From NCBI GenBank assembly GCA_031972855.1, contig DALYDY010000001.1, forward strand, positions 26,765-90,764: DNA of 64,000 nt, written 5' to 3'. Source of the stretch: Minisyncoccota bacterium (lineage in GTDB: Bacteria > Patescibacteriota > Minisyncoccia > Phycocordibacterales > UBA9973). This document shows positions 49,334 to 55,348 of this stretch, in pieces. The translations under genes and the position numbers were made by a program. The notes beneath the pieces are model-generated. The model was given only the letters and a program-made list of their open reading frames with translations. It was not told the DNA's origin and did not search any database. The number at the start of each line of letters is the position of its first letter. Position 1 is the stretch's first letter.

Positions 49334-49453
49334 CTTGTTTTTATTTTATTGTTTCACAAAATATTTATTTTCTCAACAGAACCTCGAAACAGTATTCGAA
49401 ACCCTGATAAAGAAAAGGAGGTGGAGGACCTCCTTTTGTAAAATAGGTACTAT

Positions 49454-49603
49454 TTACCTTATTTTACTGAATTTAATTTCATCTAGCCGATTAGTGGCTT
49501 GAGTAAATTTATAATTCTTTTTTTGTTCTGGTTTTGGTTTTGGCAAATTAATTTTACCAACAATTTTTAAGCCAGGTAAAACTTTAGTATTTATATTTTC
49601 CAT
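49454..49603 (-). CDS. Small protein (49 aa)
   Basis: MENINTKVLPGLKIVGKINLPKPKPEQ..; conserved promoter-like box (AAATAGTGATTTGAAAGT) about 45 bp upstream. Confidence 0.3.
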   Translation of the reverse strand: MENINTKVLPGLKIVGKINLPKPKPEQKKNYKFTQATNRLDEIKFSKIR

Positions 49604-49814
49604 TTTATATTTATTTTTATTTACAGAACAATCCTACTTTCAAATCACTATTTGGAATACTTATAGCAAGCAAATACTGATTTGAAAAATGGAGGGGAAC
49701 TCGTGCTCCCCTATTTTTTGATTTATTTGTTTTCAAGATGTTTACTCATCTTAACCAGCGATTTCACTTACTTCCTTCAGTGAGTATCTTGTTTGGATTT
49801 TTCCACGAAATAAG

Positions 49815-50054
49815 CTAACTAGGATAAAAATTACTAATTTTATTTTCCAATTTGTTACTGTAACGATGTTTTATTGTTAGACGAATTTTCATCTCTAATA
49901 TTCTTACTGGCAAACACCTATAACATGAACAATCTTGTAAGTAATCCCTATCATCATAATCATCTTCGTACATCCATTCACTTTCGTATATGTATGCATC
50001 TTTGATTATTTTAGCTACTTTTTCTAGTTCCTGGTTTCTTTCATACTTTTTCAT
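49815..50054 (-). CDS. Small hypothetical protein
   Basis: Start set at MKKYERNQ (the ORF-track start at 50096 is a TTG); conserved upstream box. Confidence 0.4.
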   Translation of the reverse strand: MKKYERNQELEKVAKIIKDAYIYESEWMYEDDYDDRDYLQDCSCYRCLPVRILEMKIRLTIKHRYSNKLENKISNFYPS

Positions 50055-50227
50055 GTTTGTGAATTTAGTCTTGCAACTACACCCACAATGAATCAAATTT
50101 CTTTTTCATGTTTTATTTAATTGTTTTAAGAACTCTTCACTATCAAACCACTATTTTAAAATAATAATCTGAACAATGAAGGAAAGATTTTTAAATCTTT
50201 CCTTTCTAATATTGAGTATTAGTACTC

Positions 50228-50611
50228 TTAAATCCAATCTCTAAATACCTCGCGAAATAAATAATCATCAAAATCTAAACCATAATCACATTTCTGTGGT
50301 AAATTCTCGCACATTTTTTTAAACACTTCCAAGATAGCATTTTCTGTCACACTGTCTCTCGATCCAAAATTAGTAATCATCCAATCACTTTCGTTATACA
50401 GATAAACTTGACACAAGGGCTCGAATGGTTGTTGCCAATCATTCTTTGGTCTTTCTTGAATGTATTCTTCTATTTCGTCAAGAAAATTATTTAGATAGAG
50501 GTTTTCATCTATGGGAATATCCCACATTTTAATGTCTTCAGAATGATTGTAAATCTTTCCAGATTCAATTTTTACATTCATTTTAGAGATTCTTATTTTA
50601 ATTGTTGCCAT
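50228..50611 (-). CDS. Hypothetical acidic protein
   Basis: 127 aa; conserved upstream box and own terminator. Confidence 0.45.
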   Translation of the reverse strand: MATIKIRISKMNVKIESGKIYNHSEDIKMWDIPIDENLYLNNFLDEIEEYIQERPKNDWQQPFEPLCQVYLYNESDWMITNFGSRDSVTENAILEVFKKMCENLPQKCDYGLDFDDYLFREVFRDWI

Positions 50612-50721
50612 AATATTTTTTTATTTTGTTTAATAAAAAAAATAAAAATATTTATGAAGATATTTTAAAGAACATTTATCTCTATCAATTTCCAAAAAAT
50701 TTTAGAAACTGAATAAAGAGG

Positions 50722-51160
50722 GAAAGTATTAATCAATTTGAAAAATACTTTCCCATTGCCGGATTTACGGCTGTTGAATTTGCTCGGGTAACGGAAACAT
50801 AAATTACATTTCCGTAAACCCAAGCGCTCATCACTTTACGTAGTAACCTCGGTCCGCAGTCCTCTTCAAAAATTCCCGCTCGGAACTTCTAAGTCGATGG
50901 ACAAAAATTGAACAAGGTCCCTGTCGAGCAACAGGTGTGGACATGGGCTCCACAATTTGAGACCGCAAACATAAAGTTTGTGATCTCAAAAATGGAGGCG
51001 AACAGGTGTTCGCCAGAATATAGAGAGGATAAAATCACTTTTCTCCCGGGCCAGTGTTTTGGATAACACTGGGCCAGGATCTTCTGTTGCCAATCGGTTA
51101 CTCTTGCTATCGAGTAATGTGAGACCGATCCGAATCGTCGTGTGTGCCTTTCGACTCAAA
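50722..51160 (-). ncRNA. GC-rich structured non-coding segment directly 3' of rsr; candidate Rsr-associated (Y-RNA-like) RNA
   Basis: No ORF; local GC well above the surroundings; several perfect hairpins (GGCCCAGTGTTATCCAAAACACTGGGCC, GAGATCACAAACTTTATGTTTGCGGTCTC, ACGGAAA..TTTCCGT); contains one copy of an about 80-nt module duplicated at 53.3 kb. Confidence 0.45.
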
Positions 51161-51163
51161 GCT

Positions 51164-52774: not shown

Positions 52775-53039
52775 AGGTTGTAATATTATTTAGTGGAAAA
52801 AAATGACCGCAATCATTTTTTTCCACCAAACAAAAAACCTATTTTTTCCTCTATATATATTTACAAAGAACTTTTTCACTATCAATCCACTATTTGACTT
52901 AGCTCACGATAAGCCAAATTAAATAATGAACTGAACAATGAGGGGAATTTTGCCCAGAACTTGCTGATCTCACTGATCAGAAGTTCCGGACATTCCCCAA
53001 TTGATTTCTATGCTGTGGTACCCAGCTATAGTTCGAGAC

Positions 53040-53415
53040 AAAAAATGTGCGCACATTCTTTGTATCCAAGCCACCTTGAACAGTCTGTACAGTTACAGCA
53101 ACCACAATTGGGTGCTGTCTGGCAGACCAGATTAAGGTATCAAATCAGGCTTGAGTCTCATTGCACAAGAAATGTGCACGAGGGACCAACGTTAGCTTTC
53201 ACGTTTCCGCAAGACTTCAGATCCGCATGTCCACCATCAATGATGGCGGACACGACATAACATGAAGATTGTGATAAACATTTTTTATTTCATAGTATCC
53301 TCGTCTTACAGTCCTCTTCAGATCCTTCGCCAAAAAGATCTAAGTCACAGGACAAAAAACAAACAAGGCTTAACCCTACCAGGCGCGCAGGGTGCGCGGA
53401 AAACGTGAAAATATT
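53040..53415 (-). ncRNA. GC-rich structured non-coding transcript candidate upstream of rsr
   Basis: ORF-free. Begins just downstream (minus sense) of the 57-bp repeat copy and ends at an intrinsic terminator AATGTGCGCACATT+T6 (about 53041-53062). Carries the second copy of the about 80-nt module. Confidence 0.45.
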
Positions 53416-53472
53416 TTTAAAGAACAATTCATTTTCAAAATTCGAACGTAATTCAAATTCTGAAAAATGTGG
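53416..53472. repeat. 57-bp perfect direct repeat, copy 2
   Basis: Identical to 49109-49165; the two copies bracket about 4.3 kb containing rsr. Confidence 0.9.
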
Positions 53473-53553
53473 ATGAATTTTATATAGGCATCATCCGATT
53501 TTCCTACTCTAATTTAGAAGAGAGTATCTTCCCTGTTTTTTGGAAAAACAGGC

Positions 53554-53715
53554 TTAGCGCATACGATTTCCCATCGGCGTCATAATAATCATTCTCTCGA
53601 ATGCTATTTGAGCTTTTGGTTGTTTTTTGCGCTTCGGGGTACCGTCAGCATTAAACCCCATTTTTGAAAGGTGACTTGTTGCATCTCTGTCTAACTCTTG
53701 TGAAGTTTTTCCCAT
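53554..53715 (-). CDS. Small protein (53 aa)
   Basis: MGKTSQELDRDATSHLSKMGFNADGTPKRKKQPK..; conserved promoter-like box about 60 bp upstream. Confidence 0.3.
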   Translation of the reverse strand: MGKTSQELDRDATSHLSKMGFNADGTPKRKKQPKAQIAFERMIIMTPMGNRMR

Positions 53716-53890
53716 AATTTAAAAAATTTTTATTGTTTTAAAAATTAAAATGACGTTATTGTTTAAAAGAACTTTATCACTATCAACCACCAAAATATTT
53801 AGTAGCTGAATAATGAGGAGAATATTTTATTTCTCCAGTTTCGAGTGATTTTAATATTAGGCACACTCACTTCCCTTTTGAAATTTATGT

Positions 53891-54055
53891 CTATTTCAAA
53901 TTAGACCTGAGATTGAATTCATGGATGGCTTTACCGATTGCTGTATGCTCAACAAATAAGTTACAAGCAAAACACAAAAGACAAAATCCAATAAACACAA
54001 TCAACCAAGGATTATTGTCAGAAAAATCCTTAAAAAAATCTTTTATTTTTTTCAT
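53891..54055 (-). CDS. Small membrane protein (54 aa)
   Basis: MKKIKDFFKDFSDNNPWLIVFIGFCLLCFACNLFV.. single TM helix. Confidence 0.3.
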   Translation of the reverse strand: MKKIKDFFKDFSDNNPWLIVFIGFCLLCFACNLFVEHTAIGKAIHEFNLRSNLK

Positions 54056-55348
54056 ATTTAATTGGTTACTTAAAATTCTATTCTAGAACCTTAAGTAACT
54101 AATTAAATCTATATAAAAGAACACTTCGATAAACTCAGTGAAAGCTTTCTCTACAGAATTCCAAACATTGTTTAGAATTCTGATAAAGAGGAGAAACGTT
54201 TGCAAAAGCATTCGTTTCTCCGAAAAAACAGAACGAAAACTGTATTGCTCCCATCATCACGCCTGATGATGGAGACTTTACCCGACCAGAGTTGCGAATT
54301 CTGATCTCTAACCCAAAATGTTACCCTTTCTTGGATAAACACTCCCTAACCTTCCACAATTTTTGTGAAAGTAGGCCTTCCTGGTGTGGAAGTGGTTTGG
54401 TTACGCTTACACAGAAAGCGTAGTCGAATATTTAAGAAAATTTCATCATTGAGGAATCGATTATGGCGCCAATCAATTCTCACAAGACAAATATTTCCTC
54501 TCGGTTATTCGATCAAACCTATTTCCCTTCGGATGCACACTCATACCAACAAGTGGTCATGCGTCACAACCTTCGAAGGGAAATTACCAGAAATATTGCA
54601 CCAAATACTTCCAGTAATCTCCCTTCGAGAAACAAAGGGTGGATTCGAACATAGAGAAAGAAAAACTGGTCCAAGGCGAGCTCCACATATATAAATTTAG
54701 TGAGTGCGTCGGGGTCTTTCTATCTACTACTGTTTTCAATGTTCTACATGGAGTATAGCAAAGTCCGAATCATTTGTCAAGTCTTTTTGTCATTTCTTTT
54801 CTATTTTTATTAAATATCCTTATTTTATATAGATATTTTTGTTTACTAATTTTAACATTACTTGCTATATTTTTATAAAATTATATAAAACCTGTAAAAA
54901 GATTTTAACAACTGTTGACATTAAAATCATAGTATGCTAAGATATAAACAAATCTCACATATATGGTACATTTTCAAAAAGGACGCTCTCGAGCGCCCGA
55001 CATTCCGTTAGTCTGTTTTCTTGTGTTTATCTTAGCGATTGGACATTCCAAACCGCTAAAGACAAACAATTCACCCGTTTTAAACAAAAGGGTAGTTGTT
55101 ATCGAAAAAACATCATGTAAAAAAACAGGCAGTGGAGGGCCTACATTATGTGCGATTAAAGCTATTGACCGAGAGTGTGTCCAGGACATGCTCTCGGTAC
55201 GCCTAAGCGTACATAAAATGAAAGGAGAACCTCTCTGTGGTTGACTAATGTTAAAAATCAAAAACCCTTAAACTCATAACTTGATTAAGAATATTAAATC
55301 AAAATGAGTAGGGAAAATTTCGGCAAATTTTTGCCAAATATGATTAGC

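What the first reader, a model, noticed from the sequence alone, without database searches (positions are those of the whole stretch)
49370..54230. Island of mini-genes with one conserved promoter-like box (TTGATAGTGA-N3-GTTCTTT) and individual hairpin terminators
At least six intergenic sites share the plus-strand box aaGAAC...T(C/A)ACTATCAA(N)CCACTATTT, i.e. minus-sense AAATAGTGG(N)TTGATAGTGA..GTTCTT. Sites: 49622-49653, 50127-50157, 50668-50696, 52866-52895, 53767-53800, with weaker versions near 49370-49390 and 54130-54150. Each lies 45-90 bp upstream of a minus-strand start codon (49454..49603, 49815..50054, 50228..50611, rsr, 53554..53715, others). Each is preceded by a different stable hairpin followed by the conserved tail TCATT(A/G)TTCAG, the terminator of the upstream gene. 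The conserved spacer GTTCTTT between the -35-like TTGATA and a TAAATA/TAAACA -10 suggests a dedicated regulator or alternative sigma factor driving the set, which includes rsr. Most genes are tiny (49-127 aa, several basic). A co-regulated small-protein island built around an RNA-surveillance gene has not, to my knowledge, been described.
Basis: seen in the sequence. Interest (0 to 1): 0.75.

Follow-up and report, generated by a model that had tools for sequence, protein, structure and literature searches.

The report
Hairpin-plus-boxA junctions in rsr island
The repeated "promoter box" is real and confined to this island, but it most likely is an RNA signal (a hairpin followed by a boxA-like antitermination motif) that sits after a terminator hairpin at every junction of a fast-changing array of tiny genes and structured RNAs around the Ro60 gene of an ultra-small (CPR) bacterium.

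Summary
Nine copies of one composite element lie on the minus strand between 49107 and 54221, and none elsewhere in about 90 kb of this genome.

Each copy has four parts:
- a GC-rich terminator-like hairpin (hp1);
- a U-rich linker ending in CAG;
- a second hairpin (hp2), which covaries and is stable only on the sense strand;
- TAGnGA followed by a near-invariant GTTCTTT-N-AAA.

GTTCTTTNAAA matches the boxA (NusB/NusE) consensus GYTCTTTAANA, and hairpin-then-boxA is the order found in rRNA leaders.

Four results argue against a promoter:
- The "-35" to "-10" spacing is 12-17 nt.
- The base that would be the critical -10 adenine is the least conserved position.
- In relatives the box lies downstream of canonical sigma-70 promoters or of hammerhead ribozymes.
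- In some relatives it lies 6-11 nt from the start codon.

At least four units are structured ncRNAs (two Y-RNA-like), not mini-genes. Strains 98% identical swap cassettes exactly at TAGnGA|GTTCTTT.

Best reading (confidence about 0.5): nut-like antitermination and junction modules in a cassette array. This is a new variant of a known kind. TSS mapping and this lineage's own rRNA boxA remain untested.

The parts
55412..56170 (-). TrmB-like wHTH regulator, upstream neighbour of the island
   Evidence: Pfam TrmB 8.8e-14. A homologue lies 2-3 kb upstream of rsr in 7 of 8 related loci. No shared box in its own upstream regions.
54752..54780 (-). Canonical sigma-70 promoter TTGACA-N17-TATACT, the only consensus promoter in the island
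   Evidence: 11 of 12 match with TG. The same promoter precedes the equivalent unit in L003, L004/L056 and L131.
54222..54745 (-). About 520-nt structured ncRNA with no credible ORF and a closing 5'/3' helix
   Evidence: MFE -177.9 kcal/mol, z = -6.5. No Rfam match.
54111..54221 (-). Junction module G: hp1 54190-54221, linker TCTTTAT, hp2 54154-54182, TAGAGAA, boxA-like GTTCTTTTATA 54112-54122
   Evidence: CM 39.3 bits, E 5.6e-6, not in the training set. hp1 and hp2 have wholly different sequences but the same architecture in the 98%-identical strain L131.
53891..54055 (-). p54TM, a 54-aa membrane mini-protein
   Evidence: ORF. Homologues in L004 and L130, tblastn 5.6e-7 and 5.6e-9. Cluster variants.
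53761..53836 (-). Junction module F: hp1 53817-53836, TCATTATT, hp2 CAGCTACTAAA/TTTGGTGGTTG, ATAGTGA, GTTCTTTTAAA
   Evidence: CM 68.9 bits.
53554..53715 (-). p53, a 53-aa basic mini-protein conserved next to rsr
   Evidence: tblastn hits in L003 (2.6e-9) and L007 (2.9e-6). A similar 55-aa ORF in L004 (4351-4518), seen by eye in the ORF list. Six distant representatives of 50-57 aa among 1.8 billion.
53414..53496 (-). Junction module I (hp1 about 53471-53496; hp2; exact GTTCTTTAAAA at 53415-53425). It precedes an ncRNA, not an ORF.
   Evidence: CM 64.2 bits.
52999..53405 (-). Structured ncRNA carrying a Y-RNA-like motif (53288-53368: ...GUCC..GACUUAGA-hairpin-UGAAGAGGACUG..GACGAGGAUAC)
   Evidence: z = -7.45. 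The motif is shared with 50836-50917 and with all eight related genomes.
52860..52998 (-). Junction module E upstream of rsr: hp1 is the closing stem 52942-52998, then hp2 with an internal extension, ATAGTGA, GTTCTTTGTAA
   Evidence: CM 59.3 bits, not in the training set.
51164..52774 (-). rsr (Ro60 orthologue)
   Evidence: Pfam TROVE 1.2e-13 and vWA_Ro60 1.4e-14. NCBIfam Rsr 4.1e-22, below that model's equivalog cut-off. PHROG RNA-binding protein 1.4e-35.
50997..51163 (-). ncRNA directly after rsr (conserved CGAUAGCAAG...CCGAUUGGCAACAGAAG), ending in hairpin 50997-51014 plus UCCAUUUUUG
   Evidence: z = -3.4. 80% match over 54 nt in L130. The same blocks are visible in L003 and L004.
50755..50990 (-). 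Second post-rsr ncRNA, with the Y-RNA-like motif at 50836-50917 (...GGACUGCGGACCGAGGUUACUAC)
   Evidence: z = -8.3 for 50715-50995. Motif conservation.
50662..50754 (-). Junction module D: hp1 50720-50754, hp2, ATAGAGA, exact boxA match GTTCTTTAAAA at 50663-50673
   Evidence: CM 71.4 bits. Exact GYTCTTTAANA. In L138 a different ORF follows this box.
50228..50611 (-). p127, an acidic 127-aa orphan ORF (cassette)
   Evidence: ORF. No family. No homologue outside its own cluster in 5.8 billion. Replaced in L138.
50122..50204 (-). Junction module C: hp1 50179-50204, hp2 CAGAUUAUUAUUU/AAAUAGUGGUUUG, AUAGUGA, GUUCUUAAAACAAUUAA
   Evidence: CM 55.3 bits. Left breakpoint of the p79/114-aa cassette swap.
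49815..50054 (-). p79 cassette (variable slot)
   Evidence: Replaced by a 114-aa ORF in L131, L132 and L133, internally deleted in L137, and absent in L138.
49618..49712 (-). Junction module B: hp1 49693-49712 plus AUUUUUC, long hp2, AAAGUAGGA, GUUCUGUAAAU
   Evidence: CM 32.7 bits, E 1.8e-4, not in the training set. Right breakpoint of the cassette swap at 49643.
49454..49603 (-). p49, a basic 49-aa ORF
   Evidence: ORF. The identical protein is on 12 contigs. No more distant homologue found.
49362..49437 (-). Junction module A, a degenerate type-2 copy: hp1 49413-49437, CAG...GGUUCUG hairpin, UUGAGAA
   Evidence: CM 19.5 bits, E 0.21, so weak.
49175..49333 (-). p52, a very basic 52-aa ORF
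   Evidence: A cluster variant with an in-frame N-terminal indel (P0002) supports coding.
49107..49189 (-). Junction module H: hp1 49164-49189, hp2 CAGAAUUUGAA/UUCGAAUUUUG, AAAAUGA, GUUCUUUAAAU
   Evidence: CM 63.1 bits. 95-nt repeat shared with module I.
48673..49080 (-). p135, the last cassette ORF. It ends at a bidirectional terminator shared with RNase Y.
   Evidence: ORF. No family. 7.6% divergence from L131 against 0.5-1.5% in its neighbours.

Best explanation
The repeated element is a composite junction module that works mainly at the RNA level. Reading 5' to 3' on the minus strand:
1. hp1, a GC-rich hairpin plus an interrupted U tract. It ends or 3'-stabilises the upstream unit.
2. hp2, a second hairpin conserved in structure but not in sequence.
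3. About 10 nt containing TAGnGA.
4. GUUCUUU-N-AAA, a boxA-like site.

I propose that hp2 plus boxA is a nut-like signal with the rRNA-leader arrangement (stem-loop, then boxA). It would recruit NusB/S10 with NusA and NusG to RNA polymerase coming from upstream, chiefly from the sigma-70 promoter at 54780. The polymerase could then continue through an array that is largely untranslated: structured Y-like RNAs and tiny ORFs without a Shine-Dalgarno sequence. It might also help those RNAs fold.

Each exchangeable cassette carries its own boxA at its 5' end and its own hp1-hp2 at its 3' end.

Shown here: the anatomy, the strand-specific covarying hairpin, the invariance of GTTCTTT and its match to boxA, island specificity, conservation in relatives, the position of the box downstream of promoters and ribozymes in relatives, and cassette exchange at the box.

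Inferred: binding by Nus factors, read-through of hp1, and the single long transcript.
For: Anatomy and specificity: nine copies, confined to the island.

hp2 is a real, strand-specific structure:
- 95.9% of cells are paired against 67% in shuffles. The covariation score is 0.72 against 0.24. Slid controls give 30-52%.
- 197 Watson-Crick, 39 G.U and 1 A.C pairs.
- The sense strand is more stable in 25 of 26 modules, p = 1e-5.
- hp1 and hp2 of module G are entirely replaced in a 98%-identical strain with the architecture kept.

The box matches boxA:
- Across 37 distinct modules the counts are G35, Y36, T36, C35, T32, T36, T35, N, A29, A28, A28.
- The experimentally derived boxA consensus is GYTCTTTAANA (PMC5725501).
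- Compare rrn UGCUCUUUAACAAUUUA and lambda nutL CGCUCUUAAAAAUUAA (PMC2724277) with module C, GUUCUUAAAACAAUUAA.
- rrn nut-like sites have the order stem-loop then boxA, and they recur within an operon (PMC8632103).
- boxA also protects long non-coding CRISPR transcripts, and its consensus drifts between phyla (PMC7665894).

The box is transcribed in relatives:
- About 45-50 nt downstream of TTGACT-N17-TATACT in L056, with a GTTCATT variant in the same place in L004.
- 0-8 nt after type-III hammerheads in L006, L004 and L130.
- 6, 9 and 11 nt before start codons in L130, L006 and L138.

It precedes ncRNA units as well as ORFs.

A hairpin plus GTTCATTTAC lies 14 nt upstream of rpsJ (S10/NusE) in the same window. 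rpsJ is a predicted boxA target elsewhere.
Against: - rrn-type antitermination is reported to act on Rho-dependent terminators, not intrinsic ones. Yet each module follows a terminator-like hairpin, several with good U tracts (B, H, I).
- Nine boxA sites in 5 kb is unprecedented; rRNA operons have two.
- The short consensus alone is not enriched in the AT-rich window: 29 hits at up to 1 mismatch against 26.5 expected. The argument rests on the module context.
- Position 8 of the consensus (A) is weak here, 16 of 37.
- The rRNA leader boxA of this lineage could not be examined, because no rRNA operon is in any fetched sequence.
- The presence of NusB and Rho in this genome was not checked.
- For several window modules (E especially: TTGATA-N16-TAAATA) a sigma-70 promoter reading remains geometrically possible.
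Confidence: 0.5

Rival explanations
1. Island-specific promoter with operator. Each module would be a terminator followed by a weak sigma-70-type promoter: -35 TTGAWA, and a -10 TAAAWA right after GTTCTT. GTTCTT would be the binding site of a dedicated regulator, such as the adjacent TrmB-like protein, or part of the target of an alternative sigma factor. Each mini-gene would then be an independently transcribed, co-regulated unit.
For: - Every module follows a terminator-like hairpin, so downstream units seem to need their own promoter.
- TTGATA/TTGAAA and TAAATA/TAAAAT resemble sigma-70 hexamers. Module E has 16-nt spacing.
- The box differs from housekeeping promoters.
- TrmB-like synteny with rsr in 7 of 8 loci.
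Against: - Spacing from TTGAWA to the hexamer is 12-17 nt, and type-2 modules have no TTGAWA.
- The base at the -11A-equivalent position is the least conserved, while the 'spacer' GTTCTT is invariant.
- The -35-like TTG is the closing part of a hairpin selected on one strand only.
- In relatives the box lies downstream of consensus promoters and of ribozymes, and 6-11 nt from start codons.
- TrmB upstream regions share no box.
Confidence: 0.22
2. Pure RNA punctuation. The array would be one precursor, and hp1, the U-rich linker and hp2 would form an endonuclease site (for example for RNase Y, encoded next door). Cleavage would leave hp1 as a 3' cap and hp2 as a 5' cap. That is the same job hammerhead ribozymes do at the equivalent junctions in relatives. 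GUUCUUU would be a leader element unrelated to Nus factors.
For: - Type-III hammerheads occupy the equivalent junctions in L006, L004 and L130.
- hp1-linker-hp2 also occurs without a boxA between the two post-rsr RNAs in the window (50997-50955) and in L003.
- The linker (T8, T9, T11, CAG) is conserved.
- RNase Y is adjacent in the window, L003 and L131.
Against: - It gives no reason for GUUCUUU being invariant.
- No cleavage data exist.
- hp1 with its U tract looks like an ordinary intrinsic terminator.
- This rival is largely compatible with, rather than exclusive of, the best explanation.
Confidence: 0.12
3. Recombination site. The hairpin plus GTTCTT core would be the target of a site-specific or single-strand recombinase, an attC-like site, and the island would be an integron-like cassette array. 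Expression signals would be secondary.
For: - Cassettes differ between 98%-identical strains, with junctions always between TAGnGA and GTTCTTT. The spacer and GTTCTTT travel with the downstream ORF, and hp1-hp2 with the upstream ORF.
- There are at least 4 alleles of one slot.
- The hairpin is strand-specific, as in attC or IS200/605 ends.
- In type-2 modules hp2 has inverted CAGAAC...GTTCTG ends.
Against: - No recombinase in or beside the island, and none among 20 window proteins tested. The nearest tyrosine recombinase, Xer-like and next to S15, is more than 12 kb away and outside the window.
- The core does not fit the integron consensus RYYYAAC/GTTRRRY.
- Breakpoints at the longest shared repeat are what ordinary homologous recombination between modules would also give.
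- The island sits at a fixed chromosomal position in core genome context.
Confidence: 0.08

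Closest known systems
rRNA-operon nut-like antiterminator (boxB stem-loop, boxA, boxC; NusB/NusE/NusA/NusG/SuhB complex)
   Same: A stem-loop followed within about 10 nt by GYUCUUU..AA on the transcript. 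It recurs inside one transcription unit, as the 16S leader and the 16S-23S spacer do. It precedes structured non-coding RNA. The core sequence matches GYTCTTTAANA.
   Different: - Nine copies in 5 kb, one at every gene or RNA junction.
- Each copy is placed right after an intrinsic-terminator-like hairpin.
- No boxC was recognised.
- The context is an rsr/Y-RNA locus with mini-ORFs, not rRNA.
- Position 8 is variable.
- Binding by Nus factors is untested.
boxA elements outside rRNA: upstream of CRISPR arrays, and in the suhB, rpsJ and toxin 5' UTRs (Stringer 2020; Baniulyte 2017)
   Same: A single short boxA in a 5' leader that protects long untranslated RNA from Rho, or, when close to a start codon, represses translation. 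Some modules here are 6-60 nt from start codons.
   Different: Those are single sites per transcript, without an obligatory preceding hairpin or terminator. Here the site is part of a repeated, exchangeable junction module.
Phage lambda nut sites (boxA plus boxB hairpin, N protein)
   Same: boxA plus a hairpin that allows read-through of successive terminators, including intrinsic ones. Module C resembles the nutL boxA-spacer.
   Different: - The order is reversed: here the hairpin comes first.
- hp2 loops are not conserved, so an N-like loop reader is not indicated.
- No N homologue was identified.
- No module was found in viral contigs.
Bacterial rsr / Y RNA loci (Deinococcus Yrn1/2, Salmonella rsr-yrlBA-rtcBA, Mycobacterium YrlA/B)
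   Same: Ro60 orthologue with one or more structured ncRNAs encoded immediately beside it and apparently co-transcribed. There is a GNCGA-like motif in a stem.
   Different: - No tRNA-like domain detectable in the window RNAs.
- No Rfam match.
- No rtcBA or RtcR; a TrmB-like regulator is present instead.
- Several extra ncRNAs and a variable mini-gene array.
Integron gene-cassette arrays (attC sites)
   Same: Same-orientation array of small, mostly orphan ORFs. Each is followed by a structure-conserved, sequence-variable, strand-specific hairpin. Cassette boundaries fall at a short GTT-containing core. Content turns over quickly between close strains.
   Different: No integrase. The core does not fit GTTRRRY. 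The hairpin is on the coding strand. The array has a fixed chromosomal position and includes ncRNAs and rsr. The mechanism of exchange is unknown.

Membership tests
boxA / nut-like antitermination element | RNA sequence matching the functional consensus GYTCTTTAANA (rrn UGCUCUUUAACAA) | tested here: met
   Positions 1-7 are conserved in 32-36 of 37 distinct modules; A at positions 9-11 in 28-29 of 37; position 8 is weak. Exact matches at 50663-50673 and 53415-53425. Consensus taken.
boxA / nut-like antitermination element | Lies on the transcript, downstream of a promoter and upstream of the RNA it protects | tested here: inconclusive
   Met in relatives: after sigma-70 promoters in L056 and (GTTCATT variant) L004, and after hammerheads in L006, L004 and L130. 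In the window it is inferred from the sense-strand RNA hairpin and the upstream promoter at 54780. No transcript data.
boxA / nut-like antitermination element | Adjacent stem-loop (boxB), 5' of boxA in the rrn arrangement | tested here: met
   hp2 ends 9-14 nt (up to about 35) before GTTCTTT. Covariation 0.72 against 0.24, 95.9% paired.
boxA / nut-like antitermination element | Same motif in the 16S leader and 16S-23S spacer of the same organism | not testable with these tools
   No rRNA operon in the window or in any fetched locus.
boxA / nut-like antitermination element | Bound by the NusB-NusE heterodimer; NusB and Rho encoded in the genome | not tested
   Only NusA (38470-39807) and S10 (2555-2905) were seen in the window. 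The S10 gene has a hairpin plus GTTCATTTAC 14 nt upstream.
Sigma-70-type promoter | -35 and -10 hexamers separated by 16-18 nt, with A at -11 and T at -7 best conserved | tested here: not met
   Spacing is 12-17 nt and type-2 modules have no -35. The -11-equivalent position is the least conserved: A 16, C 7, G 8, T 6. Genuine promoters in the window look different.
Intrinsic terminator (hp1) | GC-rich stem-loop followed by a U tract at the 3' end of a unit | tested here: met
   17 sites against 4.1 expected in the region. hp1 was found upstream of all nine modules. The U tracts of C, D, E, F and G are interrupted (UCAUUGUU), so their efficiency is unknown.
Bacterial Y RNA (YrlA type) | Encoded adjacent to rsr | tested here: met
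   Motif copies at 50836-50917 and 53288-53368 flank rsr. Homologous motifs lie within about 500 nt of rsr in all eight related genomes.
Bacterial Y RNA (YrlA type) | GNCGAAN0-1G Ro60-binding motif in a stem | tested here: inconclusive
   The window has GGACCGAGG and GACGAGG, and the family consensus is YGAGGWUACUUC. That resembles the published motif but is not identical. The closing helix CCUU(G/A)/(C/U)GAGG covaries by inspection.
Bacterial Y RNA (YrlA type) | tRNA-like domain (T-arm and D-arm) | tested here: not met
   No tRNA, tmRNA or Y RNA family match in 49000-55400 even at E<=10. ARAGORN finds nothing there.
Integron / attC cassette array | Adjacent IntI-type tyrosine recombinase, and attC with RYYYAAC...GTTRRRY | tested here: not met
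   No recombinase in the island or among 20 window proteins. A Xer-like gene lies more than 12 kb away. The core GTTCTTT does not fit GTTRRRY.
Ro60 / Rsr | TROVE domain plus vWA domain | tested here: met
   PF05731 1.2e-13 and PF25045 1.4e-14. The match to the NCBIfam Rsr model (78 bits) is far below its equivalog cut-off of 900, so this is a divergent member.

The most novel reading that the evidence does not exclude
The island would be a promoterless cassette array, a functional analogue of an integron without an integrase. Small ORFs and structured RNAs would be swapped in and out at the hp2/boxA junction. All would be expressed from one upstream sigma-70 promoter, because every cassette brings its own nut-like (hairpin plus boxA) site that re-arms RNA polymerase to pass the preceding cassette's terminator. 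One of the conserved basic mini-proteins (the p53 family, or the arginine-rich 61-aa ORF in L006) might act as an N-like cofactor. Relatives would solve the same junction problem with hammerhead ribozymes.
Probability: 0.15. Interest if true: 0.85.

Novelty: new variant of a known kind. Interest (0 to 1): 0.62.

Why it matters
If the reading is right, it extends boxA/Nus-factor antitermination in two ways. So far it is known for rRNA, lambdoid phages, CRISPR arrays and a few 5' UTRs. Here it would appear as a modular, repeated junction element in Candidate Phyla Radiation bacteria, whose transcription signals are almost unstudied.

It would also tie boxA to an RNA quality-control locus (Ro60 plus Y-like RNAs).

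It gives concrete, testable sequences:
- a 61-position covariance model of the module;
- a new Y-RNA-like motif, GAGGACUGC..YGAGGWUACUUCGA, found beside rsr in nine genomes;
- a natural experiment in which hammerhead ribozymes and terminator-hairpin-boxA modules occupy equivalent junctions.

The cassette turnover between 98%-identical strains suggests that the mini-genes are under fast, possibly conflict-driven, selection.

Tried and rejected
Motif resemblances considered and dropped:
- Gram-positive SOS (Cheo) box GAAC-N4-GTTC and alphaproteobacterial GTTC-N7-GTTC: the spacing does not fit.
- ECF sigma (GGAAC...GTT/TCTGA): the -35 is inconsistent.
- T7-like promoter on the plus strand (TCACTATCAA): wrong orientation and no conserved initiating G.
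- IHF site WATCAANNNNTTR: the TTR is missing.
- Thermococcales TrmB motif TATCAC-N5-GTGATA: the half-site is reversed, not complementary.
- RfaH ops: weak resemblance only.
- REP/RAYT (GTAG on the wrong side) and IS200/605 ends: no transposase, and a fixed locus.
- Known small ribozymes for hp1/hp2: no Rfam hit at E<=10.

Tests that came back negative:
- Base pairing of the box with the island's ncRNAs: no AAAGAAC complement in them.
- An autoregulatory box at TrmB promoters: none shared.
- Phage origin: no module among 38 IMG/VR pattern hits, and only weak PHROG hits for the mini-proteins, E 0.011-0.049.
- Defence system: PADLOC finds nothing for the mini-proteins or Ro60.

Things that did not work:
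- A search with all the mini-proteins concatenated returned nothing, not even self-hits. That is a method failure, not evidence.
- The metagenome scan with the type-1 pattern returned 120 rows, almost all chance hits in coding DNA. Only L045, L056 and L130 carry true modules.
- Extending the genome by 10 kb at each window end found no rRNA operon.
- RNAalifold on a MAFFT alignment of the Y-like motif gave no usable consensus.
- My recollection of Firmicute and cyanobacterial boxA variants (..CUUUGAAAA) could not be confirmed in the paper library. It is not used as evidence.

Full report
**What is there.**

The window comes from a Candidate Phyla Radiation (Paceibacteria-like) genome. The Ro60 protein is identical in MAG GCA_031972175.1. 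Its relatives at 47-76% identity are all CPR-type MAGs. Most of the surrounding window is core genome: ribosomal proteins, EF-Tu, PGK, TIM, NusA, ComEC, PilC.

Everything between 48673 and 56170 reads on the minus strand. In transcription order it contains:
- a TrmB-like regulator;
- a non-coding stretch;
- a perfect sigma-70 promoter at 54780-54752;
- a roughly 520-nt structured RNA, z = -6.5;
- p54TM and p53;
- a roughly 460-nt structured RNA, z = -7.5;
- rsr, with TROVE and vWA domains;
- two more structured RNAs, z = -3.4 and -8.3;
- the ORFs p127, p79, p49, p52 and p135.

Rfam recognises none of the RNAs.

**Checking the observation.**

- The loose composite pattern occurs 7 times, only here.
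- A stricter pattern gives 4 hits against 0 expected.
- A covariance model built from 18 modules recovers nine sites in the window, all on the minus strand between 49107 and 54193. Four of them were not used for training. Nothing else in the window reaches E<=1.
- About 28 kb of further sequence from the same genome is also empty.
- Terminator-like hairpins are enriched, 17 against 4.1 expected. One sits just upstream of every module.

**Anatomy.**

Read on the sense strand, every module is: hp1 (GC-rich) - UCAUURUU - CAG[hp2]YUG - (A)UAGnGA - 2 to 7 nt - GUUCUUU-N-AAA.

hp2 keeps its structure but not its sequence:
- 95.9% of cells are paired against 67% in shuffles. The covariation score is 0.72 against 0.24. 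Slid controls give 30-52%. The alignment was fitted to the model, so these numbers lean towards the structure.
- In 21 curated modules there are 197 Watson-Crick, 39 G.U and only 1 A.C pair.
- The sense strand folds to -12.7 kcal/mol on average, against -6.6 for the antisense. It is better in 25 of 26 modules, p = 1e-5.

A double-stranded DNA palindrome, such as an operator, would decay symmetrically. This is a structure of the sense single strand, most simply RNA.

In strain L131, which is 98% identical overall, hp1 and hp2 of module G have completely different sequences but the same architecture and flanks.

**Why it is probably not a promoter.**

- Housekeeping promoters in the window are textbook TTGACA-N17-TATAAT or TGnTATAAT, so this RNA polymerase is conventional.
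- In the modules, TTGAWA lies 12-17 nt from the A/T hexamer. Type-2 modules (A, G, three in L004, L045) have no TTGAWA.
- Over 37 distinct modules the invariant part is GTTCTTT. The next base, which would be the key -11 adenine of a T-A-N-N-N-T hexamer, is the least conserved position.
- In relatives GTTCTTT lies about 45-50 nt downstream of a consensus promoter (L056; a GTTCATT variant in L004).
- It lies 0-8 nt after type-III hammerhead ribozymes (L006, L004, L130). Rfam Hammerhead_3 scores there are 40.6-43.2 bits, E 2e-6 to 1e-5.
- It lies only 6, 9 and 11 nt before start codons in L130, L006 and L138.

In those places the box must be transcribed, and it cannot serve as the -10 region.

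**What the invariant core matches.**

GTTCTTT-N-AAA fits the experimentally derived boxA consensus GYTCTTTAANA (PMC5725501). Modules D and I match it exactly. Module C, GUUCUUAAAACAAUUAA, is close to the lambda nutL boxA-spacer CGCUCUUAAAAAUUAA and to rrn UGCUCUUUAACAAUUUA (PMC2724277).

In rRNA operons the nut-like site is a stem-loop followed by boxA, and it recurs in the leader and in the spacer (PMC8632103). boxA also protects long untranslated CRISPR transcripts from Rho, and its consensus drifts between phyla (PMC7665894).

The island is exactly the kind of RNA that needs such protection or co-transcriptional chaperoning: structured ncRNAs and tiny ORFs without Shine-Dalgarno sequences.

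As a small independent hint, the S10/NusE gene in this window has a hairpin plus GTTCATTTAC 14 nt upstream. rpsJ is a predicted boxA target in other bacteria.

Caveats:
- The short consensus alone is not enriched in this AT-rich window, 29 against 26.5 at up to 1 mismatch.
- rrn-type antitermination is described as ineffective on intrinsic terminators.
- The lineage's own rRNA boxA could not be checked.

**Conservation and context.**

Modules occur beside rsr in L003, L004, L007, L008 and L010, whose Ro60 identity to the window is 50-76%.

A metagenome scan produced only three further true loci among 120 rows. One of them, L045, has four modules in front of other small genes, with no rsr in 4 kb. 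No module was found in viral contigs.

A TrmB-like regulator lies 2-3 kb upstream of rsr in 7 of 8 relatives. Its own upstream regions share no box.

**Cassette behaviour.**

L131, L132 and L133 are 96-98% identical to the window on both sides. The segment 50114-49644 (p79) is replaced there by an unrelated 114-aa ORF. L137 carries a deleted p79. L138 has a 106-aa ORF in place of p127 and p79.

In every case divergence starts between TAGnGA and GTTCTTT of one module and ends at the same point of the next. A cassette is therefore [spacer-GTTCTTT-leader-ORF-hp1-hp2-TAGnGA].

Differences between the strains cluster in modules and cassettes, while p53, rsr and TrmB are nearly identical.

No recombinase is nearby. 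Recombination between the repeated modules is the economical explanation, but a dedicated mechanism is not excluded.

**The mini-genes.**

- p53 is conserved next to rsr in L003 and L007, with a similar 55-aa ORF in L004. It has six distant relatives of 50-57 aa.
- p54TM has homologues in L004 and L130.
- p52 has a variant with an in-frame indel.
- p127 has no relative outside its own cluster.
- p79, p49 and p135 have no family or detectable homologue.

So some are genuine conserved small proteins, and others are lineage-restricted orphans in a variable slot.

**The RNAs.**

A motif...UUGUCC..GAC..[variable hairpin]..GAGGACUGC..YGAGGWUACUUCGA, occurs twice in the window, at 50836-50917 and 53288-53368. 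It is closed by a helix CCUU(G/A)/(C/U)GAGG that covaries by inspection. It occurs once or twice beside rsr in all eight related genomes.

It resembles the Ro-binding GGUCCGA / GNCGAAN0-1G region of Y RNAs but lacks a detectable tRNA-like domain. I regard it as a candidate CPR Y RNA.

**Verdict.**

The interpretation as a promoter with a dedicated sigma factor is mostly replaced.

Most likely mechanism (confidence about 0.5): junction modules made of a terminator or 3'-stabilising hairpin, followed by a nut-like hairpin-plus-boxA signal that keeps RNA polymerase going through a largely non-coding cassette array around rsr.

The main rival is weak regulated promoters with GTTCTT as operator (about 0.22). 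It would be settled by TSS mapping.

This is a new variant of a known kind of element, in an unstudied phylum.

Noticed in passing
window 50836-50917 and 53288-53368 (minus); L003 7930-8030, L004 5150-5250, L005 about 5570-5670, L006 1255-1355 and 1552-1654, L007 5486-5588 and 5666-5768, L008 about 5592-5694, L009 5431-5533 and 5559-5661, L010 about 5619-5721: A conserved RNA motif, GAGGACUGC..YGAGGWUACUUCGA, with a covarying closing helix CCUU(G/A)/(C/U)GAGG, lies beside rsr in all nine genomes. It is not in Rfam. It is a candidate CPR-type Y RNA without a recognisable tRNA-like domain.
   Followed up: partly
window 54222-54745 (minus), promoter 54752-54780: A roughly 520-nt RNA driven by a perfect TTGACA-N17-TATACT promoter. 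It is strongly structured (z = -6.5) and its 5' and 3' ends pair with each other. It has no Rfam family and no sequence similarity to the equivalent RNAs of L003 or L006.
   Followed up: partly
window about 54975-55300 (minus), terminator-like hairpin 54981-54998: A further GC-richer non-coding stretch between the TrmB-like gene and the sigma-70 promoter, ending in a good terminator. Gene callers place a 93-aa ORF on the opposite strand here (L131 5345-5626). It may be another ncRNA.
   Followed up: no
L006 802-877, 1834-1888, about 3955-4010; L004 7896-7950, 11346-11401; L130 688-743: Type-III hammerhead ribozymes sit at the junctions between units of the rsr island in relatives, each followed within 0-8 nt by (G/A)YYCUUU-N-AAA. 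In L006 the whole island appears to be one sigma-70-driven transcript cut by three hammerheads. The window itself has none.
   Followed up: partly
L009 8057-8111 and 8119-8249: A hammerhead ribozyme lies immediately 5' of a tmRNA match just downstream of rsr in a Doudnabacteria MAG. This suggests ribozyme-made tmRNA 5' ends.
   Followed up: no
window 2906-2955 (minus): Between tuf and rpsJ (S10/NusE) there is a hairpin, AUCUCUAAUUUAGAGAU, followed by ACUAAUUGUUCAUUUAC, 14 nt before the rpsJ start codon. This is a boxA-like variant in front of a Nus factor gene. The covariance model does not detect it.
   Followed up: partly
window 49644-50114 against L131 10498-11027, L137 1180-1280, L138 495-900: The slot between p127 and p49 has at least four alleles among strains that are otherwise 96-98% identical: p79, a 114-aa ORF, a deleted p79, and a 106-aa ORF that also replaces p127.
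   Followed up: yes
window 48581-48619 and 48877-48964: Divergence from strain L131 clusters at the 3' end of RNase Y and inside p135 (7.6 differences per 100 nt, against about 1 elsewhere). This indicates mosaic recombination tracts at the island's distal edge.
   Followed up: no
L006 4035-4220: The unit after the third hammerhead and boxA encodes a 61-aa arginine-rich protein (..RRTRHTARRRKFLKRTANRLARRRW..), reminiscent of arginine-rich RNA-binding peptides. No link to the hairpins was tested.
   Followed up: no
L131 17280-18296: Strain L131 carries a 338-aa reverse-transcriptase-like gene (weak RVT_1 hit) next to trigger factor. It is absent from the corresponding place in the window (about 41500-41800).
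   Followed up: no
window-wide, e.g. upstream of 44566, 46489, 63523, 16261, 38470, 23995: Most genes have consensus sigma-70 or extended -10 promoters only 10-30 nt from the start codon and no Shine-Dalgarno sequence. This implies very short or absent leaders in this organism.
   Followed up: partly
L140 983-1894 (about 3 kb beyond the window's right end): A Xer-like tyrosine recombinase (Phage_integrase plus SAM-like N domain) lies next to rpsO. It is the only recombinase seen near the region and lies more than 12 kb from the island.
   Followed up: no
L045 1-1710: A 4-kb metagenome contig carries four junction modules in front of a receiver-domain-like gene and small ORFs that do have AAGGAG ribosome-binding sites. 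No rsr is on the contig, so the modules may not be strictly tied to rsr.
   Followed up: partly
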